This document shows positions 5,546 to 50,130 of a stretch of DNA of 64,000 nucleotides, one piece after another. Each line of letters starts with the position of its first letter. Positions within the stretch are counted from its first letter, which is position 1. The translations under genes and the position numbers were made by a program. The DNA lies in assembly GCA_045541795.1 (NCBI GenBank), contig JAZQJV010000018.1, forward strand, positions 37,857 through 101,856, read 5' to 3'. The notes under the pieces are model-generated. The model made no database searches. It was not told the DNA's origin and saw only the letters and a program-made list of their open reading frames with translations. The stretch comes from Patescibacteria group bacterium (GTDB taxonomy: Bacteria; Patescibacteriota; Microgenomatia; UBA1400; PJMF01).

Positions 5546-5589
5546 TTTACATCTTGACGGCCTCGGTTTGATGTGTTATAATATAGTAT
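5546..5589 (+). promoter_or_regulatory. Sigma70-type promoter with TTGACG at -35, a 17-nt spacer and an extended -10 TGTGTTATAAT, with the ATG 7 nt downstream (leaderless start of the ATPase gene)
   Basis: The sequence ttgacggcctcggtttgatgtgttataatatagtatATG is read directly. Confidence 0.55.
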
Positions 5590-7011
5590 ATGAAGATCAG
5601 GGACATCAGCGTGAGCGGCCACCCGTTTTTTGGGGAGCTCACTTTTGATGCCCTCCTCCCAGACGGCACACCGGCCAGCACCATCGTCATCGCCGGCGAA
5701 AATGGTACCGGCAAGACTAAGTTTCTCGAGCTGCTTTATGATTTTTCTCGTCTCCAGCCTACAGCAACAGGCTCTGGTTACTGTCAGCTGACATTTGATT
5801 TTGACGTGGAGCAGCTGCAAGCACTTCAAGCTGAGCCAACGCTTTCATCCATCCTCACCGAGGCTACCAATACTTGGCGCATTAAAGTCGATCACTCACT
5901 ACCGGCCACTCAAGGCATTACTATTTTTTGCCAAGATGAAAGCGGCTGGAAACAGTTGGATGCGGCTCTACTCTTGGCTGATCCAGTATTCCGCGCCAGC
6001 GTCAAGGCGCTTTATTCTACTGTGGAAATAAATTACATTCCCACCGCCAGTACTTTCATCACTAATAATAGTATGGAGGATACCGCGCGCGAGAGTATCC
6101 GCTCTGGTCAAGATCTTGCCACCAAAATCCAGCAACTCCTGATTGACATGCAAAGTCGTGACGCCAATGATCTCAACGACTGGACACTAGCGCATCCAGG
6201 ACAAGTGCCGCCCGCATCCGTGCAAGGCCAGCGCATCAAACAGTTCCAAAATGCCTTTAGTGTCATGTTTGGTGACGAACTCAATTACTACGGGGTGAAG
6301 TCTGCTGGTGAGCGCAAACAGGTTTTATTCCGTAAACGTGGCCAACTGGTAGATCTGGCTGATCTTAGTTCTGGCGAAAAGCAAATTGTTTTCCGCGGGG
6401 CATTTTTACTGCAAAACCGCTCCAGCATGTGCGGTAATACTATCCTGATCGATGAACCAGAACTCAGCCTCCATCCGCTCTGGCGCACTGGGATTTTACA
6501 TTACTACCAATCACTATTTAGTGATGGTACCACTATCCGCGGTCAGCTGTTTGTCACTACTCACTCGCCACGGGTGGTAGAAAGCTGCTTCCATCAGCCC
6601 CAAAGTCTTTTGTGGATTTTGCGCCAGGAAAATGGCAAAATCAGCGTCCACAAAATCGGCACCACTCGTGCTCTGCCTAGCGTCACGATTGCCGAGACCA
6701 ATTACTTAGCTTTTGGCTTGGCGAGCATTGACTATCACGTGGGGCTGTACAGTTATCTGCAATCCCTGCTTCACAGTCCCAGCATTATCAAACTTGACCA
6801 CTTCATCCGTCATCACGCCGCTTTTAATCCCAGCCGCCACGAGCTTACTGATCAGTTTGCTGACGCCACTTATTTTACCCTACCTACCTATATCCGCAAT
6901 GCTATCAATCATCCTGAGTCCGGCCGTGAATTTACGCCCACTCAGCTGCGTGTCTCTATCGATTTGCTCCGTCAGATTTGTCAGTCAGAAAATAATAAAT
7001 GTAAAGGTTAG
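5590..7011 (+). CDS. ABC/AAA_21-type ATPase (SMC/OLD-like ATPase fold) with an uncharacterised ~120-aa C-terminal domain
   Basis: Walker A GENGTGKT, signature-like LSSGEKQ, Walker B ILIDEPELSLHP and an H-loop TTHSP are present. No Toprim or nuclease motif is recognisable in the C-terminal region. The stop at 7009-7011 lies 1 nt before the ispH ATG. Confidence 0.6.
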   Translation: MKIRDISVSGHPFFGELTFDALLPDGTPASTIVIAGENGTGKTKFLELLYDFSRLQPTATGSGYCQLTFDFDVEQLQALQAEPTLSSILTEATNTWRIKVDHSLPATQGITIFCQDESGWKQLDAALLLADPVFRASVKALYSTVEINYIPTASTFITNNSMEDTARESIRSGQDLATKIQQLLIDMQSRDANDLNDWTLAHPGQVPPASVQGQRIKQFQNAFSVMFGDELNYYGVKSAGERKQVLFRKRGQLVDLADLSSGEKQIVFRGAFLLQNRSSMCGNTILIDEPELSLHPLWRTGILHYYQSLFSDGTTIRGQLFVTTHSPRVVESCFHQPQSLLWILRQENGKISVHKIGTTRALPSVTIAETNYLAFGLASIDYHVGLYSYLQSLLHSPSIIKLDHFIRHHAAFNPSRHELTDQFADATYFTLPTYIRNAINHPESGREFTPTQLRVSIDLLRQICQSENNKCKG

Positions 7012-7882: not shown

Positions 7883-7911
7883 AAAAATTGAGTATTTTTT
7901 GTGTACAATAA

Positions 7912-8418
7912 ATGACTATGAAAAAACTCCCGCAATTCCTCACTGGCATCGGTCAAGATTCACACCGCTTGCGTGCGGCCAAAAAAGGTGAAGTTCTCAC
8001 TCTCGCCGGCGTCCCTTTCGACTGTGGTCTCACGCTACAAGCTAACTCTGATGGTGACGTCATCCTGCATGCTTTATTTAATGCTGTGTCTACCGCCTTG
8101 GGTGGCGGTTCTATCAGTACTGTCGCTGATAAAATGTGCGCCGCCGACATCACTGACTCTCGCGCCTACTTGCAGGTCATCTTAGAAAAAATGTCTGCCC
8201 GCGGCTACATGCTCGTCAATATCAGTATCAGCATCGAAGCCGGTCAGCCGCGTTTGGAAAAATATTTCGTGTACATGAAAAAGTCACTCGCAGATTTGTG
8301 TGGGCTCGATACTGATCAGGTCGGCTTGAGTGCCACTAGTGGCGAAGGACTCACTCGTGTGAGTGATGGCGACGGTATTAGCGTGATCGCCAACGTCCTT
8401 TTGGAACGGACCACATGA
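7912..8418 (+). CDS. ispF: 2-C-methyl-D-erythritol 2,4-cyclodiphosphate synthase (IspF)
   Basis: GIGQDSHRL..SDGDVILHAL..ISIEAGQPRL motifs are present. The stop overlaps the ispE start (ATGA). The alternative start is Met at 7918. Confidence 0.8.
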   Translation: MTMKKLPQFLTGIGQDSHRLRAAKKGEVLTLAGVPFDCGLTLQANSDGDVILHALFNAVSTALGGGSISTVADKMCAADITDSRAYLQVILEKMSARGYMLVNISISIEAGQPRLEKYFVYMKKSLADLCGLDTDQVGLSATSGEGLTRVSDGDGISVIANVLLERTT

Positions 8419-11004: not shown

Positions 11005-11577
11005 TTAATTTCCTTGTTTGATCAGTCCCATTGTCGCCACCGGCCAGTAAGAGAAAAAAGCCCGGCCGATAATACTCGACTCCTCGATCGGTCCCCAGTA
11101 ACGTGAATCAGAAGACTGCTGACGGTTATCACCACAGACAAAATACTGCCCCTCGCCCAAGACAACTTCTTTGTCGCCCGCGGTATAATCCGCCGCTCCC
11201 GTGATCACGCTGTCAGACAAATAGTTACTTTCATCTAACACTTCACCATTGACGTAGACCTTACCATTAGCGATTTTTACCGTCTCACCAGGTAAACCGA
11301 TGATCCGCTTGATGTAATCACAATTGTCACCGATACATGCATTTAAAGGCGCCTTGAAAACAATCACGTCGCCCCGCTGCGGCTGCCCAAACCGGTAACT
11401 GATTTTTTCCGTCAGTAAATACTCGCCGGTACGCAAATTGGGATCCATACTGTGGCCGTTGACCTGATGCGGCTGCACGATAAAAATATAGATGACAAAA
11501 AAAATCGCCAGGGAAGTGACTACTGTCTCTACAAAATCCAGCACCCAGTCAATAATTTTTTGCTTTGTGATCGTCAT
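11005..11577 (-). CDS. lepB: Signal peptidase I (S26 family)
   Basis: An N-terminal TM is followed by the GHSMDPNL catalytic-Ser box, KRIIGLPGE and GDNRQQSSDSRYWG. Confidence 0.85.
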   Translation of the reverse strand: MTITKQKIIDWVLDFVETVVTSLAIFFVIYIFIVQPHQVNGHSMDPNLRTGEYLLTEKISYRFGQPQRGDVIVFKAPLNACIGDNCDYIKRIIGLPGETVKIANGKVYVNGEVLDESNYLSDSVITGAADYTAGDKEVVLGEGQYFVCGDNRQQSSDSRYWGPIEESSIIGRAFFSYWPVATMGLIKQGN

Positions 11578-11595
11578 GGCCTTATTATACCACAG

Positions 11596-12408
11596 CTACG
11601 GGCTAAAAGTGACGTTAATTGTGACGGTGTTTTGGTTTTCGGCCGCGTCACTGGCTTGGATTTCTAATTTGTTCTCGCCATCACTCAAACGGTACTCTAG
11701 TTCAAAATATCCGTCTACATCCGCTCTGGTGGAGCGCTCATTGATGATGATCCGCGCGCCCGGCTCACTGTGTCCCTTGATCGTGATTTGTTGCTGGTCG
11801 CGCCCGTGGAATTCCTGGTGATTTTCTGGTGTTTCCAGATCAATTTCTGGTGTCTGCGTGTCCAGAGTGATGGAGTATTCCTTAGTCTGCGCCGAGGTGT
11901 GACCGGCATCGTCAAAACTGTATGCTTGCAGTGTATTTTCACCTTCCTCAAGTTCTAGGCTGGCACTAAATTCACCGTTGAGTGCGACGGCTGTCTGTAG
12001 ACGGCTGGAGTCATCACCATTGAGGATAAACTGCACGCTAGTGCTCGGCGTCCCGTAGCCCGTGAGCGTCAAAATGTCTTGATTGGTATAACTGCTGGGC
12101 GTATCAAAAAGTGGTGTCTGCGGTCGCACGGAGTGATCCGGAGCGACGTATTTGCTGGAGTTGAGTTGTCCTGTCCACTGTACCAAAAACGGGAAAATGA
12201 AAATCAGATAGATCAAGCCGCTTGCAATAATCAAAAAAAAGATAATCAAAATTTGCCAGCGTAAATATGTAGCCGCTTGCTTTTCATCCTGACGGCGTCT
12301 GTTGGTCGCGCCCAAGCGTGAGTTGCCACTAGAGCGTCCCACGGCCACTAGCTGGCGAGAATAAAAAGCTGGTGCCTGATTACTATTTACTAGTCGTGAC
12401 CTGGTCAT
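11596..12408 (-). CDS. Membrane-anchored protein with extracellular Ig-like/Big-type repeats, unknown function
   Basis: A basic cytoplasmic N-terminus is followed by one TM helix and beta-rich repeats (GEFSASLELEEGENTLQAYSFDDAGH; DVDGYFELEYRLSDGENKLEIQASD). The 5' end is uncertain. Confidence 0.45.
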   Translation of the reverse strand: MTRSRLVNSNQAPAFYSRQLVAVGRSSGNSRLGATNRRRQDEKQAATYLRWQILIIFFLIIASGLIYLIFIFPFLVQWTGQLNSSKYVAPDHSVRPQTPLFDTPSSYTNQDILTLTGYGTPSTSVQFILNGDDSSRLQTAVALNGEFSASLELEEGENTLQAYSFDDAGHTSAQTKEYSITLDTQTPEIDLETPENHQEFHGRDQQQITIKGHSEPGARIIINERSTRADVDGYFELEYRLSDGENKLEIQASDAAENQNTVTINVTFSP

Positions 12409-12437
12409 GCCTTGTATTTTACCTTGTTACTGACCAT

Positions 12438-12479
12438 TTGTCAATTGACAAATCAAGTTTTTTTGCATATACTTACATT
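12438..12479 (+). promoter_or_regulatory. Divergent promoter region containing the perfect 14-bp palindrome TTGTCAATTGACAA, which overlaps a TTGACA -35. A TATACT -10 lies 6 nt before the kinase ATG (leaderless).
   Basis: The palindrome is read directly (its reverse complement is identical). The spacing TTGACA-17 nt-TATACT-6 nt-ATG(12480) is also read directly. Confidence 0.5.
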
Positions 12480-14627
12480 ATGTGGTCACTTATTGCCATG
12501 ATTTTGTCAGCTGCGATCATTTTCTTGATCGGTTTCCAAGTGTGGCGTTTGCGTCCGTATTCTTATCAGCGCCGCTTATTTTTCTTTTTGTCATTTATTA
12601 TTTCTAGCTGGATGCTTTGTAATTATTTCTCCCTCAAAGTGACGGACAAAACTTTATTTCTGCTTTTTGTGCGCCTCGTGATGATCGTCACGGACTGGTT
12701 ACCGCCCACCTTACTACTTTTTTCTTACTGCTTTCCCAATGGCGTCGTCACGCTCTCACGCCGACGTCTGCATTTACTCATGATCTGGACAGTATTCATC
12801 ACTCTGCTAAATTTTACCGATTTTGTTTTTCCCGATGCCAGGATCGTGGGCGACAGCTGGATCCCGCAAGCAGGGTGGGGGATTGGCTTTGTCTTGATCA
12901 ATATGATCGGTTTGCTGTCTTTGACCGCGGCCAACTTTTTCCGCAAATCGCAAAATGCCGCCGGTTTGGAAAAAGTGCGCCTGACTTATTTTGCCTTTTC
13001 ATTTTCACTGGCGATGTTTTTTGCTGTGGTTTTCAATCTCATTTTGCCGGCTTTCTTCCAAAATCCCGCTCTCATGGACATCGGGATTATGGCCATGGGG
13101 CTTACCTTTGTAGGCACTACGGGTTACACCATGCTCAAAACCAACTTTTCCAGTCTGGATCTTATCATCGCTACAGCGATCTATTACATAGTTTTGCTGG
13201 TGTGGCTGATAATCCCTTTTGCACTTCATCACATCCTTCCTAGTAATGATCATCCATCGCTTGTGGCCGCTACTTTTTTCATCTATTTATTGTGGCTTTC
13301 AGCGTACGTGTATATTTACAATCACTTAGAAAAATTTTTGATCACCAAAATCGTCAATCACGGTGCCGACTGGAATCAAGAAAGTGAAAAATTTTTTGCT
13401 CACATCCAGGATGAACTTGACTTGAAAGAAGTGCTAAGCCAGACGCTTTACTTTTTCCAGCTGCTTATCAAAAACACCGGCACTAGTATCATTGGTGACT
13501 TCATGGATGAGGGGCGGCTCACGGTTTACGGCGATATTCCGTCCAAAGCTACCAAATTACAAACATTAGCCCGCAGCCTGTGGCAGGAAGACCGCACTCC
13601 TTACTGGATCGCCGAGCACTGTCTCACAGACGAGCGTCCAGCTTACAAACGCTTGGGCCAGGAAATGAGAGAGTTTGGTATTGCCTTGATTTTCCCGATT
13701 TATTTTTATGATGATTTTAAAGGCGTGATCGTTTTTGGTGATAAACTCGGCGGCAATCCTTATTTCGTCCAAGATCTAGACATGATCACTCAGACCTTGC
13801 GTGAGCTTTCGCCTCTGATCAATAAAACTGCCATCCACCAAAACACCAAAGATTTTAACGCCCACCTGCAGCGTAAAATCGACCGCGCCACGGCGAGACT
13901 GCGCCGCATGAATGAGCAATTGATCGCGGCCGATAAGCTCAAAGATGAATTTGTCTCGGTAGCCAGTCACGAGCTGCGCACACCGATGACCGCCATCAAG
14001 GGTTACTTGTGGATGGTCGCCAAAAACAACACTCCCGAGGCTATTCCCACCAATCAAAAATACATCGAAATCGCACTCAATTCTACCGAAAGATTAATTG
14101 CCCTCGTCAACGATATGCTCACGATCTCCCGTATTGAGGGCGGACGCTTTGCACTCAATAAAGAAATTTTTGATGCTCGCAGTTTGCTCGATCAGATCCG
14201 CCAAGAATTAGAGCCGATTGCCGCTGGTAAGAATTTGCGCTTTGTCACCAAAAAACCCCGCGAAAAATTAATGGTTAATGCTGACGCCAAACGGATCATC
14301 GAGGTCTTACACAATCTCACGGGCAACGCTCTCAAGTTTACCAAGAAAGGCAGTGTCACGCTCGCCGCCCGCGCCGATGCGCACACCGTCTATATTGATG
14401 TCATTGATACGGGTGTGGGTATTGATGAGGCAGATTTTGCCAAACTTTTTTCTAAGTTTGCCCGCATGGAAAAGTCCTACGTCAAAATCAAAGAAACCGG
14501 TACCGGCTTAGGGCTTTACATCTCCCGACAAATTATGAATATGCATGGTGGCGACGTCACTTTTGTCAGCCGGCTTGATCACGGTAGCACTTTCACCATT
14601 TCTCTGCCGCGCGTAAACGCAAAATAG
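12480..14627 (+). CDS. Sensor histidine kinase with a polytopic N-terminal membrane domain (orphan: no response regulator adjacent)
   Basis: About 8 TM helices are followed by a cytoplasmic linker, a HisKA H-box ASHELRTPMTAIKGY and HATPase_c motifs (NLTGNALKFT, DTGVGID, GTGLGL). The start is moved to Met 12480 to avoid overlapping the divergent gene. Confidence 0.8.
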   Translation: MWSLIAMILSAAIIFLIGFQVWRLRPYSYQRRLFFFLSFIISSWMLCNYFSLKVTDKTLFLLFVRLVMIVTDWLPPTLLLFSYCFPNGVVTLSRRRLHLLMIWTVFITLLNFTDFVFPDARIVGDSWIPQAGWGIGFVLINMIGLLSLTAANFFRKSQNAAGLEKVRLTYFAFSFSLAMFFAVVFNLILPAFFQNPALMDIGIMAMGLTFVGTTGYTMLKTNFSSLDLIIATAIYYIVLLVWLIIPFALHHILPSNDHPSLVAATFFIYLLWLSAYVYIYNHLEKFLITKIVNHGADWNQESEKFFAHIQDELDLKEVLSQTLYFFQLLIKNTGTSIIGDFMDEGRLTVYGDIPSKATKLQTLARSLWQEDRTPYWIAEHCLTDERPAYKRLGQEMREFGIALIFPIYFYDDFKGVIVFGDKLGGNPYFVQDLDMITQTLRELSPLINKTAIHQNTKDFNAHLQRKIDRATARLRRMNEQLIAADKLKDEFVSVASHELRTPMTAIKGYLWMVAKNNTPEAIPTNQKYIEIALNSTERLIALVNDMLTISRIEGGRFALNKEIFDARSLLDQIRQELEPIAAGKNLRFVTKKPREKLMVNADAKRIIEVLHNLTGNALKFTKKGSVTLAARADAHTVYIDVIDTGVGIDEADFAKLFSKFARMEKSYVKIKETGTGLGLYISRQIMNMHGGDVTFVSRLDHGSTFTISLPRVNAK

Positions 14628-14836: not shown

Positions 14837-14878
14837 TTGGCGTCATTACTATTTTCCCCATAAAAAACGCGAAATCGG

Positions 14879-15571
14879 GTGTATAATATCCACATGTCAA
14901 AATTTAAGTCCGTGACTGCGCACTTGCAAGAGGTTTGGGAAATATTCCGTGCGGACGGCCTTTATTTGATAAATCTGAATTTTTTCATTGGTATCCAATT
15001 ACTCGTCTTTGGCGGTGGGCTGACACTTTTTTATTTTGGTAATCTGCCGCGCTGGTTCACCCTTTTATCCGCCATCATCTGTTTGGGCATTTTTAATATT
15101 TCCCTGACAGGTGTCTCCAAAAATTTGTTTGCGCTCTCGCGCGAGCGCGGTCCTGCTAAGTACCCCGTTTTTCATCGAAGCTATTTGGTGCTCGGTTTGC
15201 CGCTCCTTTTATCTTATTTACTTATCGGCGTCGTGCCGATTTTGATCATTGTCGCCATGGTGTTTGCACTTCTAGCCGGCGCTTTTGCTTATTGGCCGTA
15301 TATTTTTGCTGTCACTATCATTTTTTGTCTGCTTTGGCAGTGGCTGCTCGGCCTGGCGTCGAGCGTGATTTTAGACACCAGAGTCAGCCTCCCAGATGCA
15401 ATCGTCACCAGTTTCCGGCTGGTGCTGCAAAAGCCCTGGCAGACTTTACTCTTGGTGATTATTGATTTTGCTATTTTGATCGTAGGCAGTTTTATCCCAG
15501 TGGTGGGGACTTTTGCCGCCATCAATTGGATTATCATCAGTGCTGGTCATTTATATTGGGGTCTCAAGTAG
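14879..15571 (+). CDS. Integral membrane protein, unknown function (about 5-6 TM)
   Basis: Hydrophobic helices run throughout. The upstream sequence gggtgTATAATatccacATG indicates a leaderless -10. Confidence 0.5.
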   Translation: MYNIHMSKFKSVTAHLQEVWEIFRADGLYLINLNFFIGIQLLVFGGGLTLFYFGNLPRWFTLLSAIICLGIFNISLTGVSKNLFALSRERGPAKYPVFHRSYLVLGLPLLLSYLLIGVVPILIIVAMVFALLAGAFAYWPYIFAVTIIFCLLWQWLLGLASSVILDTRVSLPDAIVTSFRLVLQKPWQTLLLVIIDFAILIVGSFIPVVGTFAAINWIIISAGHLYWGLK

Positions 15572-16437: not shown

Positions 16438-16501
16438 TTGACAATTTTTTCCGTATCGGTTACAATGAGTTAGAAAATAAACAGTAGCCGAAAGCAAAAT
16501 T

Positions 16502-18154
16502 ATGATTAATAAATTCACGCCCGAGCGCCCAGTTGCTTACTTTAGTGCTGAGTTTGCGATTGACTCTAGTTTGCCGAGTTATGCCGGCGGTTTGGGAGTT
16601 TTGGCGGGTGACATTCTCAAGGAGGCTGCTGATCTTGGCATTAATATGGTTGGCGTCGGCCTGCTGTACAAAGGTGAAGATGCGCGCCAGGTGATTACGC
16701 CAGAAGGCAAACAAGCAGAAGAAAACATCGACTTTATCCCGCAGGAGCACGGCCTGGAGCTTGTCCGCGGCAGTCTCGGTCAGCCTCTGGTGGTACAAGT
16801 TCATCTCACTCAAGTAGATTTATGGGTCCAAGTGTGGCGCCGGCGCATTGGCGAGACAGTGGATTTATATTTGCTGGATCCGGATAATGAGCTCAATCAC
16901 AAGCACGAGCGGCGGCAAGCCTGGGCGATTTATGCCGGCACCCAAGAAGAAATCATCAAGCAACAACTCATTTTGGGCATCGGCGGTGTGAAGGCTCTGC
17001 ACGCTATGAATCTCCAGCCCGCACTTTATCACGTCAATGAAGGCCGGCCGAGTTTTCTGCACTGGCAGCTCATCCGTCAGGGGATGGATTTGCAAGGATA
17101 CAGTTATCAAAAAGCCAGCGAGCACGCCAAAAACATGACCGTCTACACCAATCACACCGTCGTTAAAGCCGGTAATCAGACCTATGACCTCGATCTGATG
17201 AAAGCTTACGTCAAGTACTTCAGCGAGCGGATGGGGATTAGCGTTGAGCGCTTACTAGCTCCCGGTACCGACGAAAACGGTCGTTTTGACGTCTCACTTT
17301 TTGCCCTCAATACTTCCCGCAAAGCCTCGAGCGTTTCCAAGCCGCACTTTAGCATCTGTCAGCAAAACTGGCCCGAGTACAGCTGGACTAATGTCACCAA
17401 CGGCGTCCATTTCCCCACCTGGACGGATAAACGTTTCCACGAAGGCAAACTTTCTGACGAAGACATTTGGCGTTTCCATCTAGAAAACAAGCGGGCGACC
17501 CAGAAACTGATCCAAGAGCGTACCGGCTTTGCTTATGATCCGGAATGCCTCATCCTTACCTGGGCACGCCGTTTTGCCACCTATAAGCAGCCAGATCTCA
17601 TTTTCCAAGACATCGAACGGCTGCGCAAGCTCCTTTTGTCCACCAATCGTCCCGTACAACTCTTGATGGCCGGCAAAGCTCATGTTTTTGATGAACGAGC
17701 CAAGCAAATCATCAGGGAAGTAATCAGTTACATGAGCCAAGAACTCAAATTCCATGCCCTGTTCATCCCCAATTATAATATGGAAATGGGAGCCGCCCTC
17801 ACTAGAGGCAGTGACGTCTGGCTCAATACCCCCATCGTTGGTCAAGAAGCCAGCGGCACTAGCGGCATGAAAGCAATCAGCAATGGTGTCTTGCAGCTCA
17901 CGGCTGTAGACGGTTGGACGGCCGAGGTAGACTGGTCGGCTGCCAAGGCCGGCTGGGCACTTAGTTATCCAGATACCCGCGAAAGCTTTTTTGGCTTGAT
18001 GGACGGCCAAGTTTTGCCCACTTTTTATCATCGCGACGCCGATGGCCTGCCGCGCGGCTGGATTAAGATGATGCGCGAGGCAATCAAGCTTTCCCGTCAG
18101 TACTCCGCCACGCGGATGCTCAAAGATTACGACGCCAACCTTTATCAACAGTAA
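16502..18154 (+). CDS. Alpha-glucan (glycogen/maltodextrin) phosphorylase, GT35 family, short form
   Basis: FSAEFAIDSSLPSYAGGLGVLAGDILKEAADLGINMVGVGLLYKGE matches the GT35 N-terminal signature. The PLP-lysine region (..GTSGMKA..NG..) is present. Confidence 0.75.
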   Translation: MINKFTPERPVAYFSAEFAIDSSLPSYAGGLGVLAGDILKEAADLGINMVGVGLLYKGEDARQVITPEGKQAEENIDFIPQEHGLELVRGSLGQPLVVQVHLTQVDLWVQVWRRRIGETVDLYLLDPDNELNHKHERRQAWAIYAGTQEEIIKQQLILGIGGVKALHAMNLQPALYHVNEGRPSFLHWQLIRQGMDLQGYSYQKASEHAKNMTVYTNHTVVKAGNQTYDLDLMKAYVKYFSERMGISVERLLAPGTDENGRFDVSLFALNTSRKASSVSKPHFSICQQNWPEYSWTNVTNGVHFPTWTDKRFHEGKLSDEDIWRFHLENKRATQKLIQERTGFAYDPECLILTWARRFATYKQPDLIFQDIERLRKLLLSTNRPVQLLMAGKAHVFDERAKQIIREVISYMSQELKFHALFIPNYNMEMGAALTRGSDVWLNTPIVGQEASGTSGMKAISNGVLQLTAVDGWTAEVDWSAAKAGWALSYPDTRESFFGLMDGQVLPTFYHRDADGLPRGWIKMMREAIKLSRQYSATRMLKDYDANLYQQ

Positions 18155-18261
18155 CGTATACATCTTGACGCCAATAATTTGAGTTAGATCGCCTCTGTTT
18201 GTGGTCAGTGTCTAAATTACCTCTTGACAAATTACAATTTTGTGGTATAATAGATAGGTTA

Positions 18262-19590
18262 ATGCAAAAAAAAGATACAAAAAAACAACCATTTATTAAG
18301 AAGCTCGGCGATAGTGCCTTGGAATGGATCAAAAAGTCACCCATGCTCGTCTTCCTGGCGGCTGTGGTAGTTCTCTTTGTTTTGATTGGCGTCTCCCAAA
18401 GCCAATCTCAGCCAGAAACGCCAGCCAGCGATGATTTTGTCAAGACCACTTTTGTAGAACTTTATCAACCAGGTCAGGCCTACCTCACCACCCAAGCCAA
18501 AGTTACGGATAAAGGCGTGGTCACGGTGGTGGCGCAAACTGCCGGCGTGGTGCAGCGCGTCAGCGTCACCGAAGGTCAGACTGTCCGCCGCGGCCAGCAG
18601 CTCGCCTCACTCTCGAGTAATTACCAAGGAGCGAATGCCTCTGCTCTCCAGCTCGAGCTTGCCAAGAAAAATTGGCTCATGACTCATGCCAACTTCTGGG
18701 ACCAGGAAAAAGTCGACGGTATCAATTACGAACTCAATCAAAACACTGCCTGGATGACCAGATGGCAGACCAATGGCGGCTCTGGTTCTATGGGTAACGG
18801 TGATGCTTACACCTCTTACAAGGGCTTGCAAAACCAAGAACTCCTGGACATCAGCGAGGCCATGACTCAGCGTGGTCAGCAACTCAGCCTCGATCAAGCA
18901 GAAAATAATTACTTTTCGGCACAGATTGCCGCCAGCCTCATGTATCCCGCCACCCCGGTAGCTGGCAGTGTGGAAAAAGTCAACGTCAAAGTCGGTGATC
19001 TGGTGACTGGCGGTCAGACAATCGCGATCATCAAGTCAGACAGCGGCAACGTCAAGATGGAATTATCCGTCCCGGAAAATGTGATCCGCAATTTATCACT
19101 GACAGCGCCTGCTTGGTTTATGGTGGACGGCCAAAGACAAAAAGTTTATCTGGATTTCTTGCCCACCACTCCCACCACCGGTAACAGTTATTACCTGACG
19201 ATGACCCTCAGTGATGAACAAGCTGATCTGGTGGCCAACGGCAGCTATGTGGACATCAATCTCCCCTTGGATACCAAGCAGGGTGAACGGCTCCTGCTGC
19301 CGCTCAATAGCGTCTACCAGACTCAGACTGCATCCTATGTTTATGTAGTCGGCTTTGATGACAATGGTCAACCGGTGGCCCGCCAAAAGCAGGTAGTTTT
19401 AGGCCCGGTGGTCGGCACTCAAGTAACCATAGAAAGCGGCCTGGAAGCCACTGATCAAGTTATCCTGTCCAACTCGCTCATGGATGGCGAACACATCACC
19501 TATACGATAGAACAGCACTCGGCAGAGGCGACGTATCCTATTCTCACCTTGCCCACTTCTACCATGAGCGCAGTATTATTTGTGGAGTAA
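18262..19590 (+). CDS. Efflux periplasmic adaptor (membrane fusion protein, HlyD/AcrA-like)
   Basis: An N-terminal TM anchor is followed by coiled-coil and beta-barrel segments. It sits immediately upstream of the RND permease. The start is set at the Met following a TGGTATAAT -10. Confidence 0.6.
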   Translation: MQKKDTKKQPFIKKLGDSALEWIKKSPMLVFLAAVVVLFVLIGVSQSQSQPETPASDDFVKTTFVELYQPGQAYLTTQAKVTDKGVVTVVAQTAGVVQRVSVTEGQTVRRGQQLASLSSNYQGANASALQLELAKKNWLMTHANFWDQEKVDGINYELNQNTAWMTRWQTNGGSGSMGNGDAYTSYKGLQNQELLDISEAMTQRGQQLSLDQAENNYFSAQIAASLMYPATPVAGSVEKVNVKVGDLVTGGQTIAIIKSDSGNVKMELSVPENVIRNLSLTAPAWFMVDGQRQKVYLDFLPTTPTTGNSYYLTMTLSDEQADLVANGSYVDINLPLDTKQGERLLLPLNSVYQTQTASYVYVVGFDDNGQPVARQKQVVLGPVVGTQVTIESGLEATDQVILSNSLMDGEHITYTIEQHSAEATYPILTLPTSTMSAVLFVE

Positions 19591-24382: not shown

Positions 24383-25420
24383 TTAATATTTTATTGCTTG
24401 TTCTACCAACCGATTACAATAACCCCACTCGTTATCATACCAGGCTACCACCCGCACTAGATTACCGCCAATCACGTTTGTCAGTGACAAATCTACCACT
24501 GATGAGTAATTAAGACCGATAATATCACTACTCACGATCGGGTCATTGGTCACCTTGACGATACGCCGATACTCATCCTGCGCGGCGGCAGTAGTGAGGG
24601 CTTGATTAACCTCGTCAATCGTCACGTCCTTACGGCTGACAAATACAATATCAGACAAACTGCCAGTCCGCACCGGTACCCGGATCGCGACTCCATCAAA
24701 TTTACCGGCCACAGCGGGATAAATTGCGCCCACGGCCTTTGCAGCGCCGGTGGTGGTGGGGACGATATTCATCGCCGCTGAGCGCGCCCGGCGCAGATCT
24801 TTGTGTGAGTTATCCTGGATATTTTGATCATCAGTATAGGCATGGATGGTATTGAGGAACGCCTTGTCTATGCCAAAAGCCTCATTAAGGATTTTAATAA
24901 TCGGGCCGACACAATTGGTAGTGCAAGATGCATTGGAGACGACAGTACTGGCCGGATCAAAGTCCTTCACGCTGATCACAGACATATCCACACCGTCACC
25001 TTTGGCTGGCGCGGAAATGATTACCCGTTTGGCGCCGCCCTGCAAGTGCAGTTCTGCTTTTTCCTTACTGGTAAAAGCACCAGTGGACTCAATCACTGTC
25101 TCCACACCGTACTTACTCCAGGGGATCAGCGCAGGGTCACGCCCAGCACTCACCGGGATCCGGACATCGTCTATCAGAATGTAACCAATCAAAGGATTTT
25201 CTGGTGTCGCCTGCTTAGCCGGTTGGAGTTTTTCAAAGCTCACTTCTTGGTGGAGTGGGCCGTAATTGCTATCGTATTTGAGTAAGTGTACCCAACCTTC
25301 AATATCCATGGAACCGGAAGTGTTAATCAAACCAATTGTCGCCGGCTTGCCTTTCGCCAGCCACACTCGCCACGCCGTGCGGCCGATACGTCCAAAACCA
25401 TTAATACCAATTGTCGCCAT
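24383..25420 (-). CDS. gap: Glyceraldehyde-3-phosphate dehydrogenase, type I
   Basis: MATIGINGFGRIGR (NAD-binding) and ASCTTNC (the catalytic Cys motif) are present. Confidence 0.9.
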   Translation of the reverse strand: MATIGINGFGRIGRTAWRVWLAKGKPATIGLINTSGSMDIEGWVHLLKYDSNYGPLHQEVSFEKLQPAKQATPENPLIGYILIDDVRIPVSAGRDPALIPWSKYGVETVIESTGAFTSKEKAELHLQGGAKRVIISAPAKGDGVDMSVISVKDFDPASTVVSNASCTTNCVGPIIKILNEAFGIDKAFLNTIHAYTDDQNIQDNSHKDLRRARSAAMNIVPTTTGAAKAVGAIYPAVAGKFDGVAIRVPVRTGSLSDIVFVSRKDVTIDEVNQALTTAAAQDEYRRIVKVTNDPIVSSDIIGLNYSSVVDLSLTNVIGGNLVRVVAWYDNEWGYCNRLVEQAIKY

Positions 25421-25520
25421 ACATTCCTTTCACTAATTTATCGCTTTATGCTTATCTATATTGTAACGCAAAAATTCGTACTTTTGACAGCAATTTTGCT
25501 GCAATTTTGATTTCCTAAAT

Positions 25521-28600: not shown

Positions 28601-30402
28601 AAGCCATAATCACTCCCACTATTGTCGTCACAATAAAACCAATCATAAGCAGCTTGAAAGTGTCCGTTCTCATCATAAACTTTGTAAATCACGCTACGAT
28701 TATCACAAGTACTGGGGCGATAACCAAAACTAAAATTCCCGTCAGCATCAGTACGGCTTTCGAGTGTAGTCAATTCCAAAAACTGCTCATAATGATCTGG
28801 GTCGCGCAAAATAATGGTGGCCGTCATCCGTCTGTTGGCAGCACTGACTTCATCACGGATACTGTTGATCTTTCCCGTCATTTCCATGCCGCTGCCCACT
28901 TGGAAGCTTTTGTTGGTGTCGCTTGTTTTAATTTCAAAAGGCGTGTAATTTATTTTTACCACTTTGAAGTCTTCGGCAGGCTCACTCAGGCCGTCACTAT
29001 AGCGGACAAATAAGGTGTAATAAAGCTGCGTTGTTCCTGACTCTTCACGTTTGTCCTCTTGCTTAGGCAGTCCAGTTTTAATTTCCCAGTCGAGCTCACC
29101 ATTTTCGCCCAGTGTCAGCGCGTGCCACTGGCAATCTTCGTTGTCATCATTGCCGCCCCAGGTATATCCTTGTTTGAAACAATAACTCACGCTTGAGCCA
29201 TTCATATCATGACCGGCAAAACTTGTCCCGCGCACGTGGGCGCTCACATTTTCTCCGGTCACTAGTGTATCTTCGTCTACATCCAAAATCAACTCATATT
29301 CCGGTTTGACGTACTCTCTCACTTCAAACCAAGTACTATTGCTGTACCGGTGCTCGCCACCCACAGACAAATAATAATCCGTCAGATCTGCATTCTCTCC
29401 GATCTTCCAGCTGCCATCAATGCCGCCGTATTCATCCGGGGTGTAAGTTTGTGCCCAATCAGTCACTTCACCATTTTTGCCAGAGTGAGTAATTTTCACG
29501 CTCACAGGTTCACGAGGCACACTGTAACGCGCGTCATCTTCTCGGCGCAGGAAAGCTTTAAAATATACCGTATCGCCGCGCTGGTAAAGCGGTTTATCGG
29601 TAAAAACATAATTATTTGCATCAGCGTGGTAAATCGAGTAGCTACCACCCGCAGTCCATAAACTACCAAGTTCCACGTCCTGGATCGCTAAAGGGATAAA
29701 ATCCCAACCGTTTGCCGTCACCACTACTAAAGCATCAGCATTTTCGGAGTAAGGGACAGTTGCGATCCCGTTGCTCGGGAAAGAAATTTCGTCGAGCGCG
29801 TGTACGCCGTCTTGTAAATTATACACGAACACTTGTCCGCTGATATTACCCGAGCCGCTAGCCAAATCCTGCGACCATAATGTAAGGTTTTCGTCACCAT
29901 TTTTGGCCATGGTAGCAAAACTTGAGCGCGTCACTAAAGCAAATTGCTCCTGGTCAGCGTCTACTGCCCGTATCCACCAAGCACCCGTGGCGGCTGGTAC
30001 GTCTAATTCATAATTACGGCCAGCCAACTGGTCCAAAGTCACACTGGTCACAGGCAATGCCAAGTCAAAATCAAAGTTTGACCACTGCAACTGACGGCGT
30101 TTGAAATAACTTTGCACTTCCTCATCTGGACTACTATATATCAAAGCATCAAGCAAGCCGTCCAAATCCAAAGGATAAAGACTGATCACTGCTTTAGGAT
30201 CGCTAAAATCTTGCGGATTTAGCTTGATTTTGTCATCAAGTCCCAGTGGTACAAATACAGAACGTGCCCCATAGTCTTCGGTAAAATTAAAACGTATCCG
30301 GCGCTGTTGCTGGTAAGCGGCACCAATTTCCTTGCCCTCGCCAAAAAACAATAAACTCAAACTCACCAGTATAGTCAACAAAAAACGTCCACACCATTTC
30401 AT
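25636..30402 (-). CDS. Alpha-2-macroglobulin family protein (bacterial A2M/ECAM-like, thioester-containing), 1,589 aa from Met at 30402, with an N-terminal signal peptide and a C-terminal TM anchor plus a Pro-rich cytoplasmic tail
   Basis: LEYPRGCVEQVTSRLVPALA matches the bacterial A2M thioester region (compare the E. coli YPYGCLEQTTS motif). DTAYWNPKIITDSNGEASTEFVMPDNLTTWALTGVAV matches the A2M domain. The start is chosen at MKWCGRFLLTILVSLSLLFF (signal peptide), downstream of the ORF-track Met at 30771. The C-terminus AWILLALATVAIIAGIVTII-RKNRRPPTPPP is a TM followed by a basic stop-transfer. Confidence 0.8.
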   Translation of the reverse strand: MKWCGRFLLTILVSLSLLFFGEGKEIGAAYQQQRRIRFNFTEDYGARSVFVPLGLDDKIKLNPQDFSDPKAVISLYPLDLDGLLDALIYSSPDEEVQSYFKRRQLQWSNFDFDLALPVTSVTLDQLAGRNYELDVPAATGAWWIRAVDADQEQFALVTRSSFATMAKNGDENLTLWSQDLASGSGNISGQVFVYNLQDGVHALDEISFPSNGIATVPYSENADALVVVTANGWDFIPLAIQDVELGSLWTAGGSYSIYHADANNYVFTDKPLYQRGDTVYFKAFLRREDDARYSVPREPVSVKITHSGKNGEVTDWAQTYTPDEYGGIDGSWKIGENADLTDYYLSVGGEHRYSNSTWFEVREYVKPEYELILDVDEDTLVTGENVSAHVRGTSFAGHDMNGSSVSYCFKQGYTWGGNDDNEDCQWHALTLGENGELDWEIKTGLPKQEDKREESGTTQLYYTLFVRYSDGLSEPAEDFKVVKINYTPFEIKTSDTNKSFQVGSGMEMTGKINSIRDEVSAANRRMTATIILRDPDHYEQFLELTTLESRTDADGNFSFGYRPSTCDNRSVIYKVYDENGHFQAAYDWFYCDDNSGSDYGLDGSSNGVSSDPDSALKIVIDKDKKHVPSEKINVSYEVGKNLVGRQYFADFGRQRLDRYSIGTFHQSPDQVAYEAVDTDQPNTFHDVSLFDRNNYISSTSGVDMARDLKKINVEITTDKEIYNPGDSVKVKIKTTNAYTGKPLSASVTLWTIDKALLELAASHRGDIFSRYWSERHHWIRTYHSLQSIMLFGAEGGGGDGSELRDVFKDTAYWNPKIITDSNGEASTEFVMPDNLTTWALTGVAVTPETVVGESKQEVVTQKDVVSRVIAPERMRVGDILHLGFSVTNYTGVTQSFVPVWEAGEGLQTLETFPSSLTLTAGETKNVTVPVKAISEMPATKITTGVRNVSSGGSGDVLVKTLQILPFGYSQKTSQFSLHAGEFDLGVAPDSERERSSVSISVAADLLSSLRSAMKDLLEYPRGCVEQVTSRLVPALAAHDSDYFSSEDFDGVDLDQLIETGVKNLTSLQQSSGGWGFWNKTRGDASAFRTTYVVKHLPQAQTPVQARAAQFLADTLQGKYLAAGERLNSADLISSVYGLLLLGERSQTVTMEGKSVSSFDAALQYYDQMNAAATTDVDLLSWMVQANLLAGDREAASHNVTRLLRAMENDNIDLTSSEAQRYRSVPADLALTIQAVLAYHQEYGGYQQQLEKLVTQLLGYRREAGWANTYESATAIEALMAWYEYAAPQDVGGSYVILAGEQTIGMADFNSGIDREKHFTVNLADLPGDVNTITVRRTDDGADAPIYVTVSVDQWRTSTNSPRENKKLNIYKAYVRAEKTGEDIKAGDIVTVYLGIENKGQTQYFVNIDDYLPSNLRPLLRENNVWANRTFNFTGFNGTLYEVKRGMTIVSYQAVLTNLAQTVSAPPTRVGSMYDADFVAQTAMTDKIQILDKQPAWISKADETYADEQETLISKPEGSTNAWILLALATVAIIAGIVTIIRKNRRPPTPPPVITPEVMTRQEEVVETAQKVAADGDEVSGGETQPVIR

Positions 30403-30466
30403 ATCTACTATCATAACACGCACCCTCATACTTGTCAAATCTGTGCACATGTAGTAAAATGAATTT

Positions 30467-31406: not shown

Positions 31407-31435
31407 CGCTCATTTTTGTGGTATAATAAGAATAT
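31407..31435 (+). promoter_or_regulatory. Extended -10 promoter TTTGTGGTATAAT with the ATG 8 nt downstream (leaderless)
   Basis: catttttgtggtataataagaatatATG is read directly. The same motif recurs at 18237, 32663, 34118, 35222, 38676 and 47700. Confidence 0.55.
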
Positions 31436-32563: not shown

Positions 32564-32684
32564 ACAAACCCAGAAATTGATAAATTAAGAAATAGAAAGG
32601 TAGAAAAAATATAAATAAAGTGGAGGTGAGAGCGTGTTTTAATTTCCCCTATTTACGGGAAGATTTTGTGGTATAATAAAAGGT

Positions 32685-34097: not shown

Positions 34098-34141
34098 TTT
34101 CCGTTGGACGCACGCCGGATTGTGGTGTATAATAAGCGCTA

Positions 34142-35203: not shown

Positions 35204-35244
35204 TCTGTGCTCACTGCCTGTCTTTTTGATGGTATAATCAGCCT

Positions 35245-36912: not shown

Positions 36913-36951
36913 ATCTTTGACGCCGGGCGCATTTCATGTTACAATGAAAAT

Positions 36952-38676: not shown

Positions 38677-38697
38677 TCGGTGTGGTATAATATCCCC

Positions 38698-39900: not shown

Positions 39901-39975
39901 TTGCCCCTTGACAAAATGAAGATGATATGTTATAATATATTTGTCATGGTTAAAAGTGACTAAGTTAAGGAAAAT

Positions 39976-40347: not shown

Positions 40348-40406
40348 AACCTCATTTCTGTACAAAATTGCCCCGTTAAATTGCGTTTGACATGTTATAA
40401 TCACTC

Positions 40407-50111: not shown

Positions 50112-50130
50112 ATTGCTGATTATATCATAC

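What the first reader, a model, noticed from the sequence alone, without database searches (positions are those of the whole stretch)
5546..5592. Pervasive extended -10 (TGnTATAAT) promoters placed 5-10 nt upstream of start codons: apparently leaderless mRNAs
The motif T(T)TGTGGTATAAT, or close variants such as TGTGTTATAAT, TGATGGTATAAT, CATGTTATAAT and CATGTTACAAT, lies immediately upstream of many start codons with no room for a Shine-Dalgarno sequence. The gap between the -10 and the ATG, gene by gene, is:
- 5590 (ATPase): 7 nt;
- 12480 (kinase): 6 nt;
- 14879 (membrane protein): 6 nt;
- 18262 (MFP): 10 nt;
- 30467: 6 nt;
- 31436 (paralog A): 8 nt;
- 32685 (paralog B): 8 nt;
- 34142 (Lon-like): 8 nt;
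- 35245 (recJ): 6 nt;
- 36952 (SpoIID-like): 6 nt;
- 38698: 6 nt;
- 40407 (helicase): 5-6 nt;
- 43508: 10 nt.

Transcription normally initiates about 7 nt after the -10, so the transcripts would begin at or within 1-3 nt of the AUG. A minority of genes (eno, gpmI, 39976 and 47733) instead carry AAGGAG-type RBSs.

This matters for gene calling: the ORF-track starts at 38680, 12372 and 18199 fall inside promoters. It also implies leaderless translation is a major mode in this organism.
Basis: partly seen in the sequence, partly recalled or inferred. Interest (0 to 1): 0.5.

Follow-up and report, generated by a model that had tools for sequence, protein, structure and literature searches.

The report
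Leaderless genes behind extended -10 promoters
In this stretch of an uncultured Patescibacteria (CPR) genome, about a third of the genes have a near-perfect promoter box only 5-10 bases before the start codon, so their mRNAs probably begin at the AUG with no ribosome-binding leader: a known way of expressing genes, but not one I found described for this group.

Summary
**Observation: confirmed and extended.**
- 19 of about 52 genes have a -10 hexamer (at least 5/6 match to TATAAT) 5-10 nt upstream of an ATG.
- Gap distribution: 5 nt x1, 6 x7, 7 x5, 8 x4, 10 x2.
- With a start rule that ignores the motif, 12/51 genes have a perfect TATAAT at that gap, against 0.09 expected.

**The motif is a real sigma-70-type promoter.**
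- TG at -15/-14 in 13/19 (P~1e-11).
- TTGACA-like -35 at 16-18 bp in 8/19 (P~6e-10).
- The same box lies 19-39 nt upstream of SD-led genes (eno, GAPDH and others) and 11 nt upstream of a tRNA.
- It is absent from 14 tightly coupled internal genes.

**The start codons are sound.** An in-frame stop often lies inside or just after the -10, N-terminal signal peptides begin at the ATG, and Pfam domains start near residue 1.

**Relatives agree.**
- RecJ orthologues at 52-63% identity keep TATAAT 6-8 nt from the ATG while the rest of the spacer has diverged.
- 50/238 genes in related loci show the architecture, against 5.7 expected.

**Verdict:** leaderless (0-5 nt leader) mRNAs are very probably a major expression mode here. 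This is a known kind (GeneMarkS-2 "group C") in a lineage for which I found no published description. TSSs are unmapped.

The parts
5554..5592 (+). Promoter and start of the AAA_21 ATPase gene: TTGACG(5554)-17-TGTTATAAT(-10 5577-5582)-7 nt-ATG 5590
   Evidence: An in-frame stop lies directly before the ATG (ORF opens at 5587).
7899..7920 (+). Possible leaderless start of ispF: TACAAT 7904-7909, 8 nt, ATG 7918. The hexamer is part of a repeated 26-nt palindromic element, so this case is less certain.
   Evidence: (YgbB domain from residue 9)
11575..11594 (-). Signal peptidase S26 gene: TGTGGTATAAT (-10 11584-11589), 6 nt, ATG 11577
   Evidence: The L022 orthologue has the same box but a 16-nt gap.
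12406..12444 (-). Big_6/Glucodextran_B protein gene: TTGACA(12439-12444)-17-TAAAAT(12416-12421)-7 nt-ATG 12408
   Evidence: The syntenic L022 orthologue has TATAAT at gap 6.
12445..12482 (+). Histidine kinase gene: TTGACA(12445)-17-TATACT(12468-12473)-6 nt-ATG 12480. It is back-to-back with the 12408 promoter. The 71-nt spacer is exactly two full promoters with no room for leaders, around the palindrome TTGTCAATTGACAA.
   Evidence: (HisKA_7TM from residue 7)
14877..14896 (+).
   Evidence: The L020 orthologue (69% identity) keeps TATAAT-6-ATG.
18224..18264 (+). HlyD-type membrane fusion protein gene: TTGACA-16-TGGTATAAT(18246-18251)-10 nt-ATG 18262. The leader is probably about 4 nt.
30400..30438 (-). 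True start of the alpha-2-macroglobulin-like giant gene: TTGACA(30433-30438)-17-TGTTATGAT(30410-30415)-7 nt-ATG 30402. The product is 1588 aa with a signal peptide, not the 1711-aa ORF.
30432..30469 (+). Gene 30467: TTGTCA(30432)-17-TAAAAT(30455-30460)-6 nt-ATG. Its -35 overlaps that of the divergent 30402 promoter.
31417..31438 (+). Pilin-like paralogue A: TTTGTGGTATAAT (-10 31422-31427), 8 nt, ATG 31436
   Evidence: (signal peptide from M1)
32667..32687 (+). Pilin-like paralogue B: TTTGTGGTATAAT (-10 32672-32677), 7 nt, ATG 32685
34123..34144 (+). AAA+/Lon-lid ATPase gene: GTGTATAAT (-10 34128-34133), 8 nt, ATG 34142. The spacer to the upstream gene is 44 nt.
35228..35247 (+). recJ: TGATGGTATAAT (-10 35233-35238), 6 nt, ATG 35245. 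The spacer is 41 nt.
   Evidence: (orthologues keep TATAAT at 6, 7 and 8 nt)
36917..36954 (+). SpoIID-domain gene: TTGACG-17-TGTTACAAT(36940-36945)-6 nt-ATG 36952. The spacer is 39 nt.
38681..38700 (+). Membrane protein gene: TGTGGTATAAT (-10 38686-38691), 6 nt, ATG 38698. The spacer is 21 nt, and GTG 38680 lies in the extended -10.
40391..40409 (+). UvrD/PD-(D/E)XK helicase-nuclease gene: CATGTTATAAT (-10 40396-40401), 5 nt, ATG 40407
   Evidence: (UvrD domain from residue 15)
43487..43510 (+). Membrane protein gene: TATGATATAAT (-10 43492-43497), 10 nt, ATG 43508. The likely TSS is the A four nt upstream of the ATG (cA).
44580..44619 (-). 81-aa Lys-rich protein gene (44337-44582): perfect TTGACA-17-TGTTATAAT(44591-44596)-8 nt-ATG 44582
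50109..50129 (-). ABC-2 permease gene: TATGATATAAT (-10 50119-50124), 7 nt, ATG 50111
39908..39978 (+). Comparator, same promoter type with a leader: TTGACA-17-TGTTATAAT(39931-39936), a 39-nt gap containing AAGGA, ATG 39976
44667..44713 (+). Comparator: eno promoter GTGGTGGTAAAAT (-10 44672-44677), a 33-nt gap with AAGGAG 5 nt before ATG 44711
47703..47735 (+). Comparator: TTTGTGGTATAAT (-10 47708-47713), a 19-nt gap with AAGGAG, ATG 47733
25418..25470 (-). Comparator: GAPDH gene, TGCGTTACAAT (-10 25460-25465), a 39-nt gap with AAGGA, ATG 25420
16438..16504 (+). Comparator: glycogen-phosphorylase-like gene, TTGACA-17-TACAAT(16461-16466), 35-nt leader region, ATG 16502
60179..60288 (+). Comparator: tRNA-Ser(CGA) 60201-60288, preceded by TTTTTGTGCTATAAT (-10 60184-60189) 11 nt upstream of the tRNA 5' end

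Best explanation
The motif is the -10 element of housekeeping sigma-70/sigma-A promoters of the extended '-16 region' type. The consensus here is T-17 R-16 T-15 G-14 G-13 TATAAT, with a TTGACA -35 at 17 bp in fewer than half of the cases.

In 19 genes the hexamer ends 5-10 nt (mode 6) before the ATG. RNA polymerase, which normally starts at the 7th base after the hexamer, would therefore begin the transcript at the A of the AUG or at most about 4 nt upstream. These mRNAs have no Shine-Dalgarno leader and must be translated by the leaderless route, in which the ribosome and initiator tRNA recognise a 5'-terminal AUG.

The organism appears to use three initiation modes side by side:
1. Leaderless: about 19 genes, roughly two thirds of the recognisable promoters.
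2. Promoter plus a 19-39 nt leader with AAGGAG(G): glycolytic genes and a few small proteins.
3. Stop/start coupling inside tight operons.

Shown:
- the positions of the motifs and their statistical enrichment;
- the co-occurrence of TG and -35;
- the validity of the start codons;
- conservation of the arrangement in orthologues and relatives.

Inferred:
- the actual TSS;
- leaderless translation itself;
- that the extended -10 plus leaderless design is favoured because it packs a complete expression signal into the 20-60 nt spacers of a streamlined genome.
For: 1. **Position.** 12/51 genes with motif-blind starts have a perfect TATAAT at gap 5-10, against 0.09 expected. TATAATN{5,10}ATG occurs 17 times against 2.7 +/- 1.6 in shuffles. 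The curated gap histogram is 5:1, 6:7, 7:5, 8:4, 10:2.
2. **Promoter identity.**
   - TG at -15/-14 in 13/19 (P=1.6e-11).
   - A -35 matching at least 5/6 at 16-18 bp in 8/19 (P=5.8e-10).
   - A TRTG consensus.
   - The consensus scan finds 12/12 and 11/12 matches at 44582(-), 39976 and 30402(-).
3. **The box is not tied to the start codon.** It also lies 19-39 nt upstream of SD-led genes and 11 nt upstream of tRNA-Ser. It is absent from all 14 genes that overlap or abut the preceding gene.
4. **The starts are right.**
   - The ORF opens only 0-2 codons before the ATG in many cases.
   - Signal peptides or TM anchors begin at M1, and no downstream start is preceded by an SD, apart from one weak TTG.
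   - Pfam domains begin at residues 1-15.
   - RecJ homologues are 553-562 aa at 98-100% coverage.
5. **Conservation.**
   - RecJ orthologues at 63, 58 and 52% identity have TATAAT 6, 7 and 8 nt from an ATG whose N-terminal peptide aligns, while the rest of the spacer is unalignable.
   - The 14894 orthologue keeps TATAAT-6-ATG.
6. **Lineage.** In 16 non-redundant related loci, 50/238 genes have the box at gap 5-10, against 5.7 expected (P~7e-30). The mode is 6 and 26/50 have TGn. Three non-Patescibacteria loci have none.
7. **Calibration.** TSSs centre 7 bp downstream of the -10 across 49 bacteria (PMC12641261). GeneMarkS-2 group C is defined by a Pribnow box 6-8 nt from the start (PMC6028130).
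8. **Base before the ATG.** It is a pyrimidine in 17/19 genes, which fits the Y-1/R+1 start preference, against 21/33 in the other genes. This is suggestive only.
Against: - No transcript 5' ends are available for this organism or any close relative. The only TSS set I found for a CPR organism was inferred indirectly from RNA-seq coverage.
- Two genes (18262, 43508) have 10-nt gaps, so a leader of about 4 nt is more likely than none.
- Three promoters (7918, 14894, 34142) have GTG directly before the hexamer rather than TGn, and no good -35.
- The 7918 hexamer belongs to a repeated element found elsewhere at gene 3' ends.
- Spacers of 21-59 nt contain no recognisable terminators; the terminator scan is not enriched (26 found, against 19.4 +/- 6.0). 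Read-through transcripts probably exist, and how the downstream ORFs behave on them is unknown.
- One close relative by enolase (L009) is mostly SD-led in the stretch seen, so the share of leaderless genes varies.
Confidence: 0.8

Rival explanations
1. The UAUAAU-like sequence acts at the RNA level as a non-Shine-Dalgarno, A/U-rich ribosome-binding or enhancer element on longer, read-through or upstream-initiated mRNAs (GeneMarkS-2 'group B' logic). It might do so instead of, or in addition to, being a promoter.
For: The motif sits at the same 6-8 nt distance that an SD would occupy. Several carriers lie only 18-59 nt downstream of a same-strand gene with no terminator in between, so read-through RNAs carrying the motif in front of an internal AUG must exist.
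Against: - The motif comes with DNA-level signals that a ribosome would not need: TG at -15/-14 (13/19) and TTGACA at exactly 16-18 bp (8/19).
- The same box occurs 19-39 nt upstream of genes that have their own AAGGAG, and also upstream of a tRNA.
- It is absent from all 14 tightly coupled internal genes.
- The organism clearly uses canonical AAGGAG(G).
Confidence: 0.08
2. The promoters are real but the annotated ATGs are not the translation starts. Translation would begin further downstream, so the mRNAs have ordinary leaders that happen to contain an in-frame ATG.
For: For genes with no homologue information (30467, 38698, 43508) the start rests only on the ORF, the promoter position and the look of the N-terminus.
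Against: - No downstream in-frame start within 50 codons is preceded by an SD, except one weak TTG.
- N-terminal residues 2-9 of RecJ are conserved among orthologues from the same ATG.
- The 14894 and S26 orthologues align from residues 1-2.
- Signal peptides with a K/R n-region start at M1.
- Pfam domains start at residues 1-15.
Confidence: 0.04
3. Chance or compositional artefact: AT-rich intergenic spacers are short, so any TATAAT-like hexamer necessarily lies near a start codon.
For: Many spacers are only 21-60 nt, which limits where a motif can lie.
Against: - Enrichment is over 100-fold above the window-wide frequency. Within the upstream 60 nt, 12 of 16 perfect TATAAT fall in a 6-nt window.
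- Dinucleotide shuffles never reach the observed count.
- In long spacers (372, 285, 263, 121 and 107 nt) the box is still 6-10 nt from the ATG.
- The spacing is conserved in orthologues whose spacers are otherwise diverged.
Confidence: 0.01

Closest known systems
Leaderless transcriptomes of Actinobacteria and Deinococcus-Thermus (M. tuberculosis, Cortes 2013; D. deserti, de Groot 2014), i.e. GeneMarkS-2 'group C' genomes (PMC6028130)
   Same: A Pribnow box lies 6-8 nt upstream of the start codon of first genes. There is no SD. The architecture coexists with SD-led genes, and a quarter to a half (here more) of transcription units are of this type.
   Different: - The lineage is Patescibacteria/CPR, probably Microgenomates. 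The group C text names Actinobacteria, Deinococcus-Thermus and a few Proteobacteria and Firmicutes.
- The -10 here is a near-perfect TGnTATAAT at 48% GC, rather than the degenerate TANNNT of high-GC actinobacteria.
- No experimental TSS support exists.
Extended -10 / '-16 region' TRTGnTATAAT promoters of Gram-positive sigma-A (B. subtilis, streptococci) and E. coli TGn promoters (my own knowledge: Voskuil & Chambliss 1998; Mitchell et al. 2003)
   Same: T-17 R-16 T-15 G-14 precedes a consensus TATAAT, and the -35 is dispensable when TG is present.
   Different: Here the promoter is fused directly to the start codon, so promoter and translation start form one 25-40 bp unit.
Archaeal leaderless genes (Haloferax, Sulfolobus; GeneMarkS-2 group D)
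   Same: Most transcription units start at or within a few nt of the AUG.
   Different: The archaeal TATA/BRE lies at about -26 and the transcription machinery is different.

Membership tests
Bacterial leaderless-gene architecture (GeneMarkS-2 group C type) | -10 (Pribnow) box about 6-8 nt upstream of the start codon | tested here: met
   19 genes, gaps 5-10 with a mode of 6. 12 observed against 0.09 expected under a motif-blind start rule.
Bacterial leaderless-gene architecture (GeneMarkS-2 group C type) | Motif confined to first genes of transcription units. Internal genes use an RBS or coupling. | tested here: met
   0 of 14 overlapping or abutting genes carry the box. Several of these have AAGGA/GGAG or ATGA/TAATG overlaps.
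Bacterial leaderless-gene architecture (GeneMarkS-2 group C type) | No Shine-Dalgarno sequence, and AUG as the start codon | tested here: met
   All 19 starts are ATG. There is no room for an SD, and no downstream alternative start preceded by an SD.
Bacterial leaderless-gene architecture (GeneMarkS-2 group C type) | Mapped primary 5' end at the start codon, or a 5' UTR of at most 5 nt | not testable with these tools
   No transcriptome is available. The only CPR TSS set I found in the literature is an indirect one for N. lyticus.
Sigma-70/sigma-A extended -10 promoter | TATAAT-like hexamer with invariant T1, A2 and T6 | tested here: met
   T1, A2 and T6 are present in 19/19. 13/19 are a perfect TATAAT.
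Sigma-70/sigma-A extended -10 promoter | TG at -15/-14 (TRTG in Gram-positive bacteria) | tested here: met
   13/19, P=1.6e-11. T-17 in 13/19 and R-16 in 17/19.
Sigma-70/sigma-A extended -10 promoter | TTGACA -35 at 17 +/- 1 bp where one is present | tested here: met
   8/19 have a match of at least 5/6 (five are perfect), P=5.8e-10. Independent scan.
Sigma-70/sigma-A extended -10 promoter | Drives transcription initiation in vivo or in vitro | not testable with these tools
   Needs run-off transcription or TSS mapping.
Non-SD A/U-rich RBS (GeneMarkS-2 group B type) | The same motif lies upstream of all genes, including internal operon genes, on leadered mRNAs | tested here: not met
   The motif is absent from the 14 coupled internal genes. 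It is accompanied by -35 and TG, and it also occurs far upstream of SD-led genes and of a tRNA.

The most novel reading that the evidence does not exclude
Leaderless initiation from extended -10 promoters may be the default way of expressing genes across a large part of the Microgenomates-like Patescibacteria. Most genes, even neighbours 20-60 nt apart on the same strand, would carry their own 25-40 bp 'promoter = translation start' cassette instead of relying on operons and SD leaders. This would be a streamlining solution, possibly linked to the reduced ribosomes of the CPR. A bolder variant is that on read-through transcripts the same UAUAAU box doubles as an A/U-rich ribosome landing site.
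Probability: 0.45. Interest if true: 0.55.

Novelty: new member of a known kind. Interest (0 to 1): 0.4.

Why it matters
1. **Gene calling.** Start-codon calling in CPR/Patescibacteria MAGs must model leaderless starts. In this window, longest-ORF starts at 12372, 14879, 18199, 38680 and 30771 run into or across promoters. One of them creates a false 123-aa N-terminal extension and a false gene overlap.
2. **Genetic tools.** The 25-40 bp promoter-ATG units are ready-made minimal expression cassettes for the genetic systems now being built for Patescibacteria.
3. **Evolution.** If TSS mapping confirms the prediction, a third large bacterial lineage joins Actinobacteria and Deinococcus-Thermus as rich in leaderless genes. 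This bears on whether leaderless initiation is ancestral or repeatedly selected in particular genome architectures, and it could be studied alongside the unusual CPR ribosome.

Tried and rejected
- **Exact look-up of window proteins** (RecJ, enolase) in the contig index found nothing, so the rest of the source genome could not be analysed. It is a 288,690-bp NCBI contig.
- **The GTDB scan with RecJ** gave only relatives at 38% identity or less.
- **The metagenome scan with the helicase** gave only relatives at 35% identity or less. These were useless for orthologous-spacer comparison but usable for the lineage-wide profile.
- **Neighbourhoods of close enolase homologues** (L008, L009) are not syntenic with the window.
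- **Rfam** found only the tRNA. No riboswitch or leader RNA explains the leadered genes.
- **Literature.** Searches for leaderless with Patescibacteria, candidate phyla radiation, Saccharibacteria, TM7x or CPR bacteria, and for TSS with Saccharibacteria, returned no paper describing leaderless genes in the CPR. The GeneMarkS-2 supplements are not held.
- **The 26-nt repeated palindrome** was considered as a mobile promoter and set aside. Most copies lie at gene 3' ends, and it is absent from relatives.
- **Y-1/R+1 preference** was tested, but the result is only suggestive (17/19 against 21/33).
Full report
**Source organism.** The window is about 48% GC.
- Its enolase is identical to a protein on a 288,690-bp NCBI contig. 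The nearest named relatives are Woesebacteria, Pacebacteria and 'Patescibacteria group' MAGs.
- The named RecJ relatives are Pacebacteria, Curtissbacteria, Collierbacteria and Levybacteria.
- The organism is therefore an uncultured Patescibacteria (CPR) bacterium, probably of the Microgenomates. The exact record could not be retrieved.

**Check of the observation.** Reading the 60 nt upstream of each listed start confirms a TATAAT-like hexamer 5-10 nt before an ATG at all 13 places. There are small corrections:
- The '14879' start is a GTG lying inside the promoter (GTG-TATAAT-atccac-ATG). The real start is 14894.
- The gap at 32685 is 7 nt, not 8.
- The -10 at 12480 is TATACT and the one at 30467 is TAAAAT.

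A scan of every TAnAAT on both strands, followed by curation, adds six cases:
- 7918 (ispF)
- 11577(-) (signal peptidase)
- 12408(-) (Big-domain protein)
- 30402(-) (alpha-2-macroglobulin-like giant protein)
- 44582(-) (81-aa Lys-rich protein)
- 50111(-) (ABC-2 permease)

This makes 19 of about 52 genes. The gaps are 5 nt (1 gene), 6 (7), 7 (5), 8 (4) and 10 (2).

**Is it more than chance?**
- To avoid circularity, I took the first ATG of each long non-overlapping ORF without looking at the motif. 12 of 51 such starts have a perfect TATAAT ending 5-10 nt upstream, against 0.09 expected from the window-wide frequency.
- 15 of 51 have a match of at least 5/6, against 0.78 expected.
- Within the 60 nt upstream of starts, 12 of 16 perfect hexamers fall in that six-position window.
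- The pattern TATAATN{5,10}ATG occurs 17 times, against 2.7 +/- 1.6 (maximum 8) in dinucleotide-preserving shuffles. 13 of the 17 open the long ORFs listed above.

**Is the motif a promoter?** I aligned the 19 sites on the hexamer.
- T1, A2 and T6 are invariant.
- TG is at -15/-14 in 13/19 (P=1.6e-11).
- T-17 is present in 13/19 and a purine at -16 in 17/19. This is the TRTGnTATAAT '-16 region' form of the extended -10.
- Eight sites also have a match of at least 5/6 to TTGACA at 16-18 bp (five are perfect), against a chance rate of 1.8% per site (P=5.8e-10).
- The independent consensus scan lists 44582(-), 39976 and 30402(-) as 12/12, 12/12 and 11/12 promoters.

Three internal controls show that the box is a transcription signal and not something tied to start codons:
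- It lies 19-39 nt upstream of genes that carry their own AAGGAG(G): 39976, eno 44711, 47733, GAPDH 25420 and 24368. It also lies upstream of 16502, 51796 and 60089.
- TTTTTGTGCTATAAT lies 11 nt upstream of tRNA-Ser(CGA).
- None of the 14 genes that overlap or abut the preceding gene (spacer of 3 nt or less) has it.

**Are the ATGs the true starts?**
- In many cases the ORF opens only 0-2 codons upstream. The in-frame stop is the TAA of TATAAT or lies just after it, so no upstream start is possible.
- No in-frame start within the next 50 codons is preceded by an SD, apart from one weak TTG.
- Several products begin with a classical signal peptide or membrane anchor directly at M1: 30402, 31436, 32685, 36952 and 43508.
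- Pfam domains begin at residues 1-15: UvrD at 15, S26 at 14, YgbB at 9 and HisKA_7TM at 7.
- RecJ homologues in the protein database are 553-562 aa with 98-100% coverage of the 555-aa query.

**Comparative evidence.**
- RecJ orthologues fetched from four other assemblies at 63, 58, 52 and 47% identity have the following upstream of an ATG whose encoded N-terminus aligns with MAKYTWQFL: TATAAT-6 nt, TATAAT-7 nt, TATAAT-8 nt and TAAAAT-12 nt. The rest of the spacer is unrelated.
- The orthologue of 14894 in L020 (69% identity) keeps TATAAT-6-ATG. The S26 orthologue in L022 (75%) has the box with a 16-nt gap, so leader length can change.
- Applying the same motif-blind rule to 16 non-redundant related loci, 50 of 238 genes have a -10 matching at least 5/6 at gap 5-10, against 5.7 expected (P~7e-30). 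There is a sharp mode at 6 nt, and 26/50 have TGn.
- Individual loci reach 8/20 (L022) and 9/22 (L017).
- Three non-Patescibacteria loci picked up by the same search have none.
- One relative close by enolase (L009) is mostly SD-led in the stretch seen. The proportion therefore varies with lineage and gene class.

**Mechanism.**
- Across 49 bacteria with mapped TSSs, initiation centres 7 bp downstream of the -10 (PMC12641261). This means 6 nt lie between the hexamer and +1. From my own knowledge of the MASTER experiments (Vvedenskaya et al. 2015), the usable range is about positions 6-10, with a preference for a purine preceded by a pyrimidine.
- In 17/19 genes the A of the ATG lies at positions 6-9. 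In 17/19 the preceding base is a pyrimidine, against 21/33 for the other genes, which is suggestive only.
- For the two 10-nt gaps the best-placed purine gives a leader of about 4 nt. Leaders this short fall within the 0-5 nt 5' UTR range used as the working definition of leaderless in M. tuberculosis (my own recollection of Cortes et al. 2013; not verified in the text read here).
- The transcripts therefore cannot contain an SD and must use leaderless initiation.

**Local anatomy that fits the model.**
- The divergent pair 12408/12480 is separated by 71 nt. This equals 7+6+17+6 | 6+17+6+6, i.e. two complete promoters back to back around the palindrome TTGTCAATTGACAA, with no room for any leader.
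- The pair 30402/30467 (64 nt apart) shares overlapping -35 hexamers (TTGTCAA).
- From 34142 to 43508, six of seven consecutive same-strand genes, separated by 21-59 nt, each have their own box. There is no terminator-like hairpin between them.
- I infer that the extended -10, which needs no -35, combined with a leaderless start is a compact solution for a streamlined genome. This is inference.
- In this window the SD-led genes include the three glycolytic enzymes GAPDH, enolase and iPGM.

**Rival explanations.**
- An RNA-level, non-SD ribosome-binding role for UAUAAU is not excluded for read-through transcripts. It is disfavoured by the -35 and TG association, by the motif's presence far upstream of SD-led genes and of a tRNA, and by its absence from coupled genes.
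- Mis-assigned start codons and compositional chance are rejected by the tests described under 'Are the ATGs the true starts?' and 'Is it more than chance?'.

**Comparison with what is known, and novelty.**
- Leaderless-rich bacteria are well documented: Actinobacteria 90% and Deinococcus-Thermus 97% group C. The mechanism and the promoter type are both known.
- Six full-text searches found no paper describing leaderless genes in Patescibacteria/CPR. Hits on 'leaderless' were reference-list items or unrelated.
- The literature I found notes loss of the anti-SD in some Parcubacteria (PMC9297842) and a single, indirectly inferred TSS set for N. lyticus.
- I therefore rate this as a new member of a known kind: solid and useful, but not surprising in mechanism.
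- Absence from the searched library does not prove that it is undescribed elsewhere. Automated pipelines that use GeneMarkS-2 may already model it silently.

Noticed in passing
window 3853-3878(+), 7888-7913(+), 10428-10453(+), 14715-14740(-), 25595-25620(-), 60882-60907(+): A 26-nt element, TTGAGTATTTATTGTGTACAATAAAT, contains a 20-bp near-palindrome (ATTTATTGTG/TACAATAAAT) and occurs 6 times (0 expected), always in intergenic DNA and mostly at gene 3' ends. Three copies share a further downstream module, ...AAAAACGTTAGCAG...CTGCTAA, which could form a hairpin. Two others share an upstream module (CAGTATTACGGTTGG.AAATTCAGTTATTCGGTAAAA). It is absent from all 23 related loci. It may be an operator for a dimeric regulator or a small repeated/mobile intergenic element.
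   Followed up: partly
window 25636-30771(-) and 30467-31150(+): The 1711-aa longest ORF overlaps the divergent gene at 30467. The promoter at 30410-30438 and a signal peptide (MKWCGRFLLTILVSLSLLFFG) place the real start at 30402. The product is a 1588-aa alpha-2-macroglobulin-like protein (MG2, A2M_BRD, A2M and TED domains).
   Followed up: yes
window 44337-44582(-): An unannotatable 81-aa Lys/Thr/Ala-rich basic protein (MTKTKSSAKKTTAKRTGVKSATKAAKSK...) sits behind the best promoter in the window (12/12 plus TG). The 111-aa + strand ORF 44350-44685 that overlaps it is probably spurious. It has no Pfam hit and could be a histone-like or nucleoid protein.
   Followed up: partly
window 12438-12451 and 30432-30438: Two divergent gene pairs have back-to-back or overlapping -35 hexamers that form palindromes (TTGTCAATTGACAA; TTGTCAA). 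This implies competition between the two RNAP binding sites, or a shared operator.
   Followed up: partly
window 31436-32563 and 32685-34097: Two tandem paralogues have signal peptides and a C-terminal weak T4SS_pilin domain (just below the gathering score). They have nearly identical TTTGTGGTATAAT promoters.
   Followed up: no
window 4102-5217(-): This protein has a strong hit to the ALK/LTK glycine-rich domain (PF12810, E=2.7e-34), a family named after animal receptor kinases. It is SD-led (AAGGA).
   Followed up: no
L009 1-3155 (GCA_964452285.1, CAYVKW010000001.1): A relative at 77% enolase identity carries a Cas12a (Cpf1)-Cas4-Cas1-Cas2 locus about 7 kb upstream of eno. A 39-aa gene there (8868-8987) has a textbook TTTTGTGTTATAAT-6-ATG leaderless start.
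   Followed up: no
window 46030-46133: The spacer upstream of gpmI contains repeated 'TTGTTAAACA' / 'ATGTTTAACAA' motifs (aaattgttaaacatttgttaaacatatgtttaacaacaaa). They look like an operator-type inverted or direct repeat. No -10 matching at least 5/6 was found within 60 nt of the start.
   Followed up: no
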